A stretch of DNA of 24,000 nt from Burkholderia glumae LMG 2196 = ATCC 33617 (GTDB lineage: Bacteria > Pseudomonadota > Gammaproteobacteria > Burkholderiales > Burkholderiaceae). Positions 20,250 to 20,525 of the stretch are shown one piece after another. Location of the stretch: positions 3 through 24,002 of the forward strand of contig NZ_CP009433.1 of assembly GCF_000960995.1 (NCBI RefSeq). Direction: 5' to 3'. The first letter of the stretch is position 1. Every line of letters starts with the position of its first letter. The position numbers and the translations under genes were made by a program. The notes beneath the pieces were generated by a model. It made no database searches and was not told the origin of the DNA. It was given only the letters and a program-made list of their open reading frames with translations.

Positions 20250-20525
20250 GCGGCCGCACGGCTCGGAAGATTAACTTTTAACAGGGTGGACGTCGAAAGG
20301 TTGCGTTGGCAATCGTGTGAGATGACAAGACAGGTAGGACCGGGACTTGCTAAACCTGGAGCGTTCACTGAGCCTCAAGCTCGTGAAGGTAATGAGGAGC
20401 AAGTCAGCGGATTTCATCGGGGCCCGCAGCGGACGTATCGGCTGCAACAAGGCCGAATACATAGCCGCAACCCATCCTGTCGCAGTCTGAACACCCGAAA
20501 ACTTGCGCAAACGGGACGCGTTCAT
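20250..20525 (+). ncRNA. Candidate bridge (guide) RNA region in the 3' non-coding end of the IS110/IS1111-family element
   Basis: A 276-bp non-coding right end, against a ~117-bp left end. It contains GAAGGTAATG (20385-20394), identical to the 10 nt of flanking target DNA at 19101-19110. A near match to the same flank, GTCGAAAGGT, is at 20292-20301. GCAATCGTGT (20309-20318) matches 8 of 10 positions of the reverse complement of the right flank ACATGATCGC (20526-20535). No structure or expression evidence is available. Confidence 0.35.

What the first reader, a model, noticed from the sequence alone, without database searches (positions are those of the whole stretch)
20250..20525. Candidate bridge RNA: the 3' non-coding end of the IS110/IS1111 element carries a 10-nt copy of its own left target flank
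Seen in the sequence:
- GAAGGTAATG at 20385-20394, inside the 276-bp non-coding right end, is identical to 19101-19110, the host DNA immediately left of the insertion.
- A second near match to the same flank is GTCGAAAGGT at 20292-20301, against GTCGAAGGT at 19098-19106.
- GCAATCGTGT at 20309-20318 is an 8 of 10 match to the reverse complement of the right flank ACATGATCGC (20526-20535). One mismatch would be a G-T wobble.
- AT dinucleotides sit at both junctions (ga|AT|gaacg and gttc|AT|acatg), which would fit a short shared core.

My rough expectation for a 10-mer match between ~20 nt of flank and ~400 nt of non-coding ends, on both strands, is about 0.02.

Established knowledge: IS110-family recombinases use an element-encoded bridge RNA whose loops base-pair with target and donor DNA. 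This was shown for IS621 in 2024. The RNA is reported to lie at the recombinase-distal right end in the IS1111 subgroup.

Inference: this region encodes such an RNA, programmed for the IS21 repeat sequence it landed in.
Basis: partly seen in the sequence, partly recalled or inferred. Interest (0 to 1): 0.65.

Follow-up and report, generated by a model that had tools for sequence, protein, structure and literature searches.

The report
Bridge (seek) RNA of IS1111-type element
The non-coding tail of this Burkholderia glumae insertion sequence encodes a guide RNA of the recently described bridge/seekRNA kind, set to the spot in another mobile element where it sits; it is a well-supported but ordinary new example of a known mechanism.

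Summary
Several details do not.

**What is there**
- Window 19106-20528 is a 1423-bp IS1111-type element. The boundaries come from 17 uninterrupted copies of the host ISBmu3-family IS21 element.
- Its 3' non-coding region folds into two internal loops closed by stems that show compensatory changes across 35 relatives.

**Guide segments**
- Only GAAGG(T) of it is host flank. (T)AATG is the element's own left tip.
- The right-flank guide is AGCGTTCA at 20360-20367. It pairs with 7 of 8 flank bases.
- A donor guide, ATACAT (20457-20462), copies the element's right tip plus the single shared T.

**Evidence from relatives**
- Both target loops are hypervariable among relatives and follow each relative's own flanks.
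- A covariance model built from the relatives hits the ISEc11 seekRNA region at 123 bits (E 2.5e-28). That region is experimentally validated.

- The second and third matches lie in sequence that hardly varies across the family, so they are chance.
- The proposed AT core is not supported. Only one T is shared between the junctions.

**Verdict**
This is a new member of a known kind.

The parts
19106..20528 (+). Whole IS1111-type element, 1423 bp. The T at 19106 or 20529 is ambiguous between element and target.
   Evidence: Seventeen uninterrupted ISBmu3-like copies read GGTCGAAGG|TGATCGCTG. Empty-site hits also occur in the plasmid collection (H84-H86).
19106..19112 (+). Left terminal extension TAATGGA (7 nt), outside the inverted repeat. 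It carries the shared T and most of the -10 hexamer of the putative junction promoter.
   Evidence: ISEc11 has the equivalent 7-bp extension AAATGTA.
19113..19125 (+). Left subterminal inverted repeat ATGAACGCGTCCC
   Evidence: It is the reverse complement of 20513-20525.
19230..20249 (+). Transposase/recombinase gene. It has a GTG start with GGAGG upstream and encodes 339 aa.
   Evidence: Pfam DEDD_Tnp_IS110 (9e-15) and Transposase_20 (3e-23). It is 60% identical over its full length to the ISEc11 transposase.
20338..20474 (+). Core of the bridge/seekRNA: a target-binding loop module followed by a donor-binding loop module.
   Evidence: Model R1 gives 145 bits here and 123 bits on the ISEc11 3' NCR. 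Fold z-score is -3.3. Covariation is shown.
20344..20357 (+). 5' strands of the stems below the target-binding loop. GACTTGC at 20344-20350 pairs with 20399-20405. ACCT at 20354-20357 pairs with 20395-20398.
   Evidence: Five of the 7 pairs in the lower stem show changes on both sides. The pair 20354/20398 is A-U in 21 sequences and G-C in 8.
20358..20369 (+). 5' strand of the target-binding loop, GGAGCGTTCACT. The right target guide AGCGTTCA (20360-20367) is complementary to the top strand TGATCGCT at 20529-20536 in 7 of 8 positions.
   Evidence: This block is hypervariable among relatives and follows each relative's right flank. The longest match averages 6.3 nt for a guide against its own flank and 3.1 nt against flanks of other elements.
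20370..20382 (+). Apical hairpin of the target module: GAGC, loop CTCAA, GCTC.
   Evidence: It is conserved and paired in 98% of cells.
20383..20394 (+). 3' strand of the target-binding loop, GTGAAGGTAATG. The left target guide plus shared T, GAAGGT (20385-20390), equals 19101-19106. AATG (20391-20394) equals the element's left tip at 19107-19110.
   Evidence: The first 8 nt vary with the left flank, and AATGAGG is family-invariant.
20395..20405 (+). 3' strands of the stems below the target-binding loop: AGGA and GCAAGTC.
20407..20468 (+). Donor-binding module. Stems are 20407-09/20466-68, 20421-24/20451-54 and 20426-30/20441-45. The 5' loop strand is GATTTCATCGG (20410-20420). The 3' loop strand is GAATACATAGC (20455-20465).
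   Evidence: One compensatory pair, 20423/20452, is C-G in 26 sequences and G-C in 6.
20457..20462 (+). Left donor guide ATACAT. It is identical to the element's last 5 nt plus the shared T (20524-20529).
   Evidence: In 49 of 53 relatives this hexamer equals that relative's right tip plus its first flank base. Five different states occur: ATACAT, ATATAG, ATATAA, ATATAC and ATGTAG.
20503..20508 (+). Putative -35 hexamer TTGCGC of a promoter completed only when the ends are joined. After an 18-nt spacer the -10 is CATAAT, made of 20527-20528 plus 19106-19109.
   Evidence: Read directly from the sequence. No sigma-70-like promoter was found in the integrated element. A junction promoter is reported for ISEc11. 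This is inference only.
20513..20528 (+). Right subterminal inverted repeat GGGACGCGTTCAT (20513-20525) plus the 3-nt right extension ACA.
19019..19105 (+). Outer 87 bp of the left end of the host ISBmu3-family IS21 element. It starts with TGCGTATTTCGG. This is the left target flank.
   Evidence: In 17 other copies, homology to this sequence starts at TGCGTAT. The ISBmu3 family name comes from the RefSeq annotation.
20529..20545 (+). Continuation of the ISBmu3 left end, TGATCGCTGATCACCGG. This is the right target flank.

Best explanation
Window 19106-20528 is an intact IS1111-subgroup (IS110-family) insertion sequence of Burkholderia glumae. It is inserted, without target duplication, 87 bp inside the left end of an ISBmu3-family IS21 element. 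Its 279-nt 3' non-coding region encodes a bridge RNA, also called a seekRNA.

**Target-binding loop.**
- The 5' strand carries a right target guide, AGCGUUCA (20360-20367). It base-pairs with the top strand of the right flank, TGATCGCT.
- The 3' strand carries a left target guide, GAAGGU (20385-20390). It has the sequence of the left flank's top strand, so it pairs with the bottom strand.
- The left guide runs on into AAUG(A), which copies the element's own left tip.

**Donor-binding loop.**
- The 3' strand carries AUACAU (20457-20462). This copies the element's right tip plus the one shared T.
- The 5' strand contains UUCAU. It could pair with ATGAA at the start of the left inverted repeat.

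**Proposed mechanism.** The recombinase would bind this RNA and use it to align the circular donor junction with the ISBmu3 site. It would also use it to recognise the flanks for excision. Strands would be exchanged at the shared T.

**What is shown and what is inferred.**
- Shown here: element boundaries, RNA structure with covariation, guide-flank and guide-end correspondence across relatives, and homology to the ISEc11 seekRNA region.
- Inferred from the literature: that the molecule is an RNA bound by the recombinase, the strand-exchange chemistry, and expression from a promoter formed at the circle junction.
For: **Family membership.**
- The protein has DEDD_Tnp_IS110 and Transposase_20 domains.
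- The element has 13-bp subterminal inverted repeats.
- The long non-coding region lies downstream of the gene.
- The 339-aa protein is 60% identical to the ISEc11 transposase.

**Boundaries.** Seventeen empty sites define the insertion.

**Comparison within this genome.** Two 86%-identical copies in the same genome sit in a different conserved site, TTTTTGAAC|T|GGCCTCTTA. Over 20289-20528 they differ from the window copy at 31 of 240 positions. Twelve of those fall within the two guide stretches, 20360-20368 and 20385-20389 (14 nt in all). Their loops read GTAAGAGGC, the reverse complement of their right flank, and TTGAACT, their left flank.

**Comparison across the genus.**
- Across 47 right-flank and 24 left-flank events in the genus, guides match their own flanks far better than the flanks of other elements.
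- The donor-guide hexamer equals the right tip plus the first flank base in 49 of 53 elements, over five sequence states. The same base appears at the core position of the left target guide.

**Structure.**
- 98.3% of cells are paired, and 7 pairs show double changes. No shuffle in 500 reached the observed values, and slid controls gave 29-36% pairing.
- RNAalifold independently recovers the same two-loop fold.
- G-U pairs in the stems, for example 20409/20466 in 31 of 35 sequences, fit the + strand only.

**Homology to a validated RNA.** Model R1 hits the ISEc11 3' NCR over its full length at 123 bits, E 2.5e-28. This falls in the segment whose deletion abolishes ISEc11 transposition and which yields the transposase-bound seekRNA (PMC11187229). 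In that ISEc11 copy the two loops match its published target GTGAAAATACTG in the same order, with the top-strand match 5' of the bottom-strand match.

**Site fidelity.** Every listed copy at 99% identity or more in the plasmid collection carries the same flanks.
Against: - No expression data are available.
- No Rfam 15 family matched. The published bridge-RNA covariance models were not on hand.
- The right target guide has one mismatch to the actual site, a U opposite T.
- In the single-sequence fold, UUCAC of the right guide pairs with GUGAA of the left guide. In this copy the loop may therefore be partly closed.
- A right donor guide could not be established by independent covariation. The only supporting change, UCCAU with ATGGA in two elements, also tracks the right inverted repeat.
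- The copies of the window-type element may stem from one insertion carried along by ISBmu3. If so, site fidelity of this exact variant rests on few independent events.
Confidence: 0.9

Rival explanations
1. The 10-mer is a coincidence. On this view the 3' non-coding region only holds protein-binding end sequences, or a promoter or terminator, and has no guide function.
For: One match at p of about 0.015 is not decisive alone.
Against: - The two loop blocks are the most variable parts of an otherwise conserved region.
- They track each relative's own flanks.
- The stems covary.
- The region is homologous to a validated seekRNA.
Confidence: 0.02
2. Only the short target-seeking module (20344-20405) is functional. 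It would act as an 82-nt-type seekRNA. The downstream 'donor loop' would be a processing remnant or part of the end sequences recognised by protein, so the element would not use a two-loop bridge.
For: For ISEc11 the short 82-nt RNA alone supported transposition at 42%, against 15% for the long form. A right donor guide could not be shown here.
Against: - The ATACAT hexamer follows the right tip and shared base through five states in 49 of 53 elements. That is hard to explain without pairing to the donor end.
- The donor module is as conserved as the target module, and it is present in ISEc11.
Confidence: 0.12
3. The complementary segments act as single-stranded DNA, not RNA. This would resemble the subterminal guide sequences of IS200/IS605 elements.
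For: Sequence analysis alone cannot tell RNA from + strand DNA.
Against: - The close homologue ISEc11 yields RNase-sensitive, DNase-resistant nucleic acid bound to its transposase, and it works when the NCR is transcribed in trans.
- DEDD/serine IS110 recombinases act on double-stranded DNA with RNA guides (PMC11208158).
Confidence: 0.02

Closest known systems
ISEc11 and its seekRNA (Siddiquee et al. 2024, Nat Commun, PMC11187229)
   Same: - Both are IS1111 subgroup members with a 339-aa transposase, and the two proteins are 60% identical.
- Both have a 7-nt left extension, 13-bp subterminal repeats and a 3' NCR.
- The RNA is homologous over the whole two-loop core (123 bits).
- The order is the same: the top-strand match lies 5' of the bottom-strand match.
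   Different: - The target differs: the ISBmu3 left end GAAGG|T|GATCGCT here, against GTGA|AAAT|ACTG for ISEc11.
- The junctions share 1 nt here and 4 nt in ISEc11.
- The right extension is 3 nt here and 2 nt in ISEc11.
- There are no experimental data for this element.
IS621 bridge RNA (Durrant et al. 2024, PMC11208160; Hiraizumi et al. 2024, PMC11208158)
   Same: - Both use a target-binding loop and a donor-binding loop.
- In each loop, the left guide has the top-strand sequence and pairs with the bottom strand. The right guide is complementary to the top strand.
- The shared core base is written into both loops.
   Different: - IS621 belongs to the IS110 subgroup. Its RNA is in the left end, and its left guide is 5' of its right guide.
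- IS621 has a CT core and 2-nt handshake guides next to the right guides.
- Here the order is reversed and the RNA is in the right end.
- Here the extension into donor sequence lies on the left target guide (AAUGA).
IS4321/IS5075 (Partridge & Hall 2003, cited in PMC11208160). This comparison is from my own knowledge of that paper; I did not read it here.
   Same: They are IS1111-subgroup elements that insert in one orientation at a fixed position inside the terminal inverted repeat of another transposon.
   Different: - Their target is the 38-bp repeat of Tn21-family transposons, not an IS21-family end.
- Their transposases are only about 35% identical to this one.

Membership tests
IS1111 subgroup of the IS110 family | DEDD (RuvC-like) N-terminal domain plus the PF02371 C-terminal domain | tested here: met
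   PF01548 at 9.1e-15 and PF02371 at 2.9e-23.
IS1111 subgroup of the IS110 family | Subterminal inverted repeats of 7-17 bp with short terminal extensions | tested here: met
   The 13-bp repeats lie at 19113-19125 and 20513-20525. Empty-site comparison gives extensions of 7 nt on the left and 3 nt on the right.
IS1111 subgroup of the IS110 family | The long non-coding region lies downstream of the transposase gene | tested here: met
   There are 279 nt downstream (20250-20528) against 124 nt upstream (19106-19229).
IS1111 subgroup of the IS110 family | Transposase of 330-350 aa with the motif GL-P----S/T-G | tested here: met
   The protein is 339 aa and contains GLVPKQTGTG (translation). The criteria are those of PMC11187229.
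IS1111 subgroup of the IS110 family | Site- and orientation-specific insertion without target duplication | tested here: met
   The junctions share a single T. All listed copies of 99% identity or more lie in the same site.
Bridge RNA / seekRNA | Structured non-coding RNA with internal loops closed by conserved, covarying stems | tested here: met
   Of 26 pairs, 98.3% of cells are paired and 7 pairs show double changes. No shuffle in 500 matched this. RNAalifold gives the same fold.
Bridge RNA / seekRNA | Loop segments complementary to both strands of the target, changing with the target among relatives | tested here: met
   The window copy has a 6-nt left guide and a right guide matching 7 of 8.
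Bridge RNA / seekRNA | In IS1111-type RNAs, the top-strand match lies 5' of the bottom-strand match | tested here: met
   20360-20367 (top-strand match) precedes 20385-20390 (bottom-strand match).
Bridge RNA / seekRNA | A second loop with guides for the donor (element) ends | tested here: inconclusive
   The left donor guide is well supported, in 49 of 53 elements over five states. The right donor guide is only a conserved UUCAU/ATGAA complementarity, without independent covariation.
Bridge RNA / seekRNA | Homology to an experimentally validated guide RNA | tested here: met
   R1 hits the ISEc11 NCR at 123 bits, E 2.5e-28, over all 137 model positions. That region is essential in ISEc11.
Bridge RNA / seekRNA | The RNA is transcribed, binds the recombinase and is required for transposition | not testable with these tools
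No experiment was possible.
Bridge RNA / seekRNA | Hit by a curated or published covariance model | tested here: not met
   Rfam 15 gave only chance-level snoRNA hits (E above 1) over 18900-20800. The models of Durrant et al. are not in the library on hand, so this says little.

The most novel reading that the evidence does not exclude
This Burkholderia lineage may work with a one-nucleotide crossover core. That base is written into the RNA three times: in the right target guide, the left target guide and the left donor guide. The left target guide runs on into the element's own left tip, so it reads the integrated left junction better than the empty target. That would suit an RNA mainly tuned for excision or for holding the product. 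The window variant may also have specialised on the left end of ISBmu3 and spread between plasmids as a passenger of that IS21 element.
Probability: 0.25. Interest if true: 0.45.

Novelty: new member of a known kind. Interest (0 to 1): 0.3.

Why it matters
The mechanism is not new. Bridge RNAs and seekRNAs of IS110/IS1111 elements were described in 2024, and one was predicted in the right end of 93% of catalogued IS1111 elements.

The value here is as a clean natural dataset. One genus holds more than ten naturally reprogrammed versions of an ISEc11-like RNA, and their targets can be read from empty sites. The set shows which loop positions carry specificity, how many mismatches occur in nature, and that a single shared base is enough at the crossover. 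That could help in designing guides for ISEc11-type recombinases.

It also corrects the annotation of this element's ends. It explains why the element sits at one fixed place in ISBmu3 copies on B. glumae plasmids.

Tried and rejected
- **Rfam 15 scan of 18900-20800.** Run at E up to 10, it returned only chance snoRNA-like hits.
- **Empty site for the second element type.** I searched this genome for TTTGAACTAATG...GCCTCTTA and found none. The pattern still contained the element's own AATG. I later understood why it could not match and did not repeat the search.
- **Other copies of the host IS21 element in this genome.** There are none. The empty sites had to come from other species of the genus.
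- **A perfectly matching target.** I asked whether GAAGGTGAACGCT exists as a repeat in the genus. It gave 4 hits in 95 genomes, the same as the reversed-pattern control. The ISBmu3 site, with its one mismatch, is therefore the natural target in the available data.
- **A right donor guide.** Inspecting alignment columns against left-end variants gave no independent covariation.
- **Internal promoter.** No sigma-70 promoter was found in the integrated element.
- **Rejected readings.**

Full report
**1. What is in the sequence**

The ORF at 19230-20249 on the + strand encodes 339 aa. It starts with GTG and has GGAGG eight bases upstream. It carries the two Pfam domains of IS110-family recombinases, DEDD_Tnp_IS110 and Transposase_20. 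Thirteen-base inverted repeats lie at 19113-19125 (ATGAACGCGTCCC) and 20513-20525 (GGGACGCGTTCAT). The window is 99.94% identical to plasmid bglu_2p of Burkholderia glumae BGR1 over the 8.9 kb compared (15060-24000). The element to the right is annotated there as an ISBmu3-family IS21 element with istA and istB.

**2. True boundaries**

The host IS21 element is single-copy in this genome. Seventeen uninterrupted copies in other species of the genus all read TGCGTATTTCGG...TTTCGGTCGAAGG|TGATCGCTGATCACC.
- The inserted DNA is therefore 19106-20528, or 19107-20529. That is 1423 bp.
- One T is shared by the two junctions, and there is no target duplication.
- The element has a 7-nt left extension, TAATGGA, and a 3-nt right extension, ACA, outside the inverted repeats. 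ISEc11 is described as having the same kind of 7-bp left extension.

**3.

- The 10-mer GAAGGTAATG is present at 19101 and 20385 only. With the corrected boundaries it reads as GAAGG (flank), T (shared) and AATG (element's left tip).
- GTCGAAAGGT (20292) lies in sequence that hardly varies among relatives with entirely different flanks. GAAAGGTTGC is conserved even in ISEc11 of E. coli.
- GCAATCGTGT (20309) also lies in sequence that hardly varies among those relatives.
- These last two are not target guides.

**4. Comparative test inside the same genome**

The genome holds two more full copies at 86% identity. Both sit in the same short site, GTTTTTGAAC|T|GGCCTCTTA, in otherwise unrelated surroundings.

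Over 20289-20528 the window copy and these copies differ at 31 of 240 positions. Twelve of the differences fall within the two guide stretches, 20360-20368 and 20385-20389, which total 14 nt.

| Copy | First block | Second block |
|---|---|---|
| Other copies | GTAAGAGGC, reverse complement of their right flank GCCTCTTAC | TTGAACT, their left flank plus the shared T |
| Window copy | AGCGTTCA, complementary to TGATCGCT at 20529-20536 in 7 of 8 positions | GAAGGT, equal to 19101-19106 |

Both blocks therefore change with the target. This is the natural reprogramming described for the ISEc11/ISXne4 pair.

**5. Comparative test across the genus**

Searching 95 genomes of the genus with the non-coding region found relatives in 30 of them. 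With extra copies fetched I had 55 elements at 74-88% identity.
- The same two blocks are hypervariable, and the rest is conserved.
- For 47 distinct right-flank events, the longest match between the first block and the reverse complement of its own flank averages 6.3 nt. Against flanks of other elements it averages 3.1 nt, and only 1.5% of those pairs reach 6 nt or more.
- For 24 left-flank events, the contiguous match running leftwards from the shared base averages 4.9 nt for own flanks and 1.5 nt for others.

A third segment, 20457-20462 (ATACAT), equals the element's last five bases plus the first flank base.
- Across the family this hexamer takes five states: ATACAT, ATATAG, ATATAA, ATATAC and ATGTAG.
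- It matches the element's own right tip plus shared base in 49 of 53 elements.
- The same base stands at the core position of the second block.
- This is what a left donor guide should look like.

**6. Structure**

I aligned the 35 distinct sequences of the core (A1). RNAalifold predicts two modules.

Module 1:
- Lower stem: 20344-50 with 20399-405.
- Short stem: 20354-57 with 20395-98.
- Internal loop: a 12-nt 5' strand (20358-69, holding the right target guide) and a 12-nt 3' strand (20383-94, holding the left target guide and AAUG).
- Apical hairpin: 20370-82.

Module 2:
- Stems: 20407-09/20466-68, 20421-24/20451-54 and 20426-30/20441-45.
- These enclose a loop with GAUUUCAUCGG on the 5' side and GAAUACAUAGC on the 3' side.

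Counting the pairs I named gives 98.3% paired cells. Seven pairs change on both sides, five of them in the lower stem of module 1. No shuffle in 500 reached these values, and slid controls gave 29-36% pairing. G-U pairs in the stems fit the + strand only.

The window sequence alone folds at -54.4 kcal/mol, z = -3.3. In that single-sequence fold, UUCAC of the first loop strand pairs with GUGAA of the second. In this copy the loop may therefore be partly closed. This is a caveat, not a contradiction, because the family consensus leaves both strands open.

**7. Link to an experimentally validated RNA**

The transposase is 60% identical, end to end, to that of ISEc11. ISEc11 is the main subject of Siddiquee et al. 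2024.

A covariance model built only from the Burkholderia sequences (R1) hits the 3' non-coding region of an ISEc11 copy on an E. coli plasmid. The hit covers all 137 model positions at 123 bits, E 2.5e-28.
- The hit corresponds to ISEc11 positions of about 1261-1393.
- That lies inside the 270-bp fragment that complements an NCR deletion in trans.
- It also overlaps the deleted, essential segment 1170-1374.

In that copy the loops read ACAGUAUU(UU) and GUGAAAAU. They match the published target GTGAAAATACTG in the published order, with the top-strand match first. The window RNA is thus a homologue of a seekRNA that co-purifies with its transposase and is required for circle formation and insertion.

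In the terms used for IS621:
- The segment with top-strand sequence is the left target guide.
- The complementary one is the right target guide.
- Their order is reversed, and the RNA lies in the right end, as reported for IS1111 elements.

**8. How it most likely works**

*Shown:* the element's ends, the RNA fold, the three guide segments and their covariation with flanks and ends.

*Inferred from ISEc11 and IS621:*
- The recombinase binds the RNA.
- The target loop pairs with both strands of the ISBmu3 site.
- The donor loop pairs with the joined ends of the circular form.
- Strands are exchanged at the shared T.
- The same target guides recognise the flanks during excision.

*Inferred from sequence only:* joining the ends creates TTGCGC-N18-CATAAT, a reasonable promoter (9 of 12 consensus positions). 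No such promoter exists in the integrated element. In relatives the equivalent is TTGCAA-N16-TAGAAT. This would explain why AAT at the left tip and ATA at the right tip are conserved.

*Open points:*
- A right donor guide is not demonstrated. UUCAU at 20413-17 is complementary to ATGAA at the start of the left repeat. It becomes UCCAU in the two elements whose repeat starts ATGGA, but the right repeat changes in parallel.
- The continuation of the left target guide into AAUGA matches the integrated left junction rather than the empty target. The empty target reads GAAGGTGATC there, so it matches 8 of 10 positions.

**9. Is it 'programmed for' ISBmu3?**

Every listed copy of this exact variant in the plasmid collection has identical flanks. 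That collection has 67 records at 99% identity or more, all from B. glumae.

In BGR1 the 4120-bp composite of ISBmu3 plus passenger is present on two plasmids in different surroundings, with one mismatch between them. These may not be independent insertions, because ISBmu3 may have moved with its passenger.

A hypothetical perfectly matching site, GAAGGTGAACGCT, occurs only at chance level in the genus. The ISBmu3 site, matching 6 nt plus 7 of 8 nt, is therefore the best natural target seen. One mismatch is within the range seen for relatives.

**10. Novelty and score**

The mechanism, the position of the RNA and natural reprogramming are all published (PMC11187229, PMC11208160, PMC11208158). 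This particular element carries no specific IS name in RefSeq, where it is annotated only as 'IS110 family transposase'. Its ISBmu3 target appears not to have been described. I searched only these papers.

It is a new member of a known kind. A specialist would not be surprised. The family-wide dataset of guide and target pairs is useful but incremental.

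Noticed in passing
L028-L085 (relatives in other Burkholderia genomes): Most relatives whose shared base is G sit between a Shine-Dalgarno-like GGAG/AGGA and an ATG 7-9 nt downstream. In 11 of 23 loci with enough downstream DNA, that ATG opens an ORF of 100 aa or more. Their guides contain the complements of GGAG and of ATG. This sub-lineage seems to aim at translation-initiation regions of genes.
   Followed up: partly
L002 (G000 C3:38184-39596) and L003 (G000 C4:116811-118223): A second element type, 86% identical, has different guide loops. It occurs twice in this genome in the site GTTTTTGAAC|T|GGCCTCTTA. Its right guide lacks one base relative to both observed targets (GTAAGAGGC-A against GTAAGAGGCCA). 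What the target sequence belongs to was not determined.
   Followed up: partly
window 19019-23138 and L058 (BGR1 plasmid bglu_3p): The 4120-bp composite of ISBmu3 with the IS1111-type passenger in its left end is present on two BGR1 plasmids in different surroundings, with 1 mismatch. Either ISBmu3 still transposes with 1.4 kb inserted between its terminal repeat units, or the passenger hit two copies independently.
   Followed up: partly
window 18482-19019 and 23277-23814: A 538-bp stretch of the IS3-family orfB just left of the ISBmu3 composite recurs at 98.5% identity about 140 bp beyond its right end. A 142-bp stretch is also repeated (23136-23276 and 23804-23945). This indicates a second truncated IS3 copy next to the nest.
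   Followed up: no
window 20362-20368 and 20518-20524: In the window copy the right-target-guide block contains GCGTTCA, which is identical to 7 nt of the element's own right inverted repeat. Equivalently, the guide is complementary to TGAACGC in the left repeat. This could be chance, or a trace of how this loop was rewritten.
   Followed up: no
window 20364-20368 with 20383-20387: [quoted passage not shown] They extend the apical hairpin in the single-sequence fold. This is not seen in relatives.
   Followed up: partly
window 20284-20341: About 58 nt upstream of the two-loop core are as conserved as the core itself. The conservation extends to ISEc11 (GAAAGGTTGC, GATGACAAAGACAGGTA). Only part of this stretch was included in the structure analysis (the model starts at 20338), and its role is unexplained. 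It may be a 5' stem-loop or part of the 'long' seekRNA.
   Followed up: no
L004 (G000 C1:3043662-3044588) and L005 (G000 C1:3026057-3026397): Partial, more diverged (68-74% identity) copies of related elements lie on chromosome 1. L004 keeps the RNA region, with its own guides next to ...GTGACCATG.
   Followed up: no
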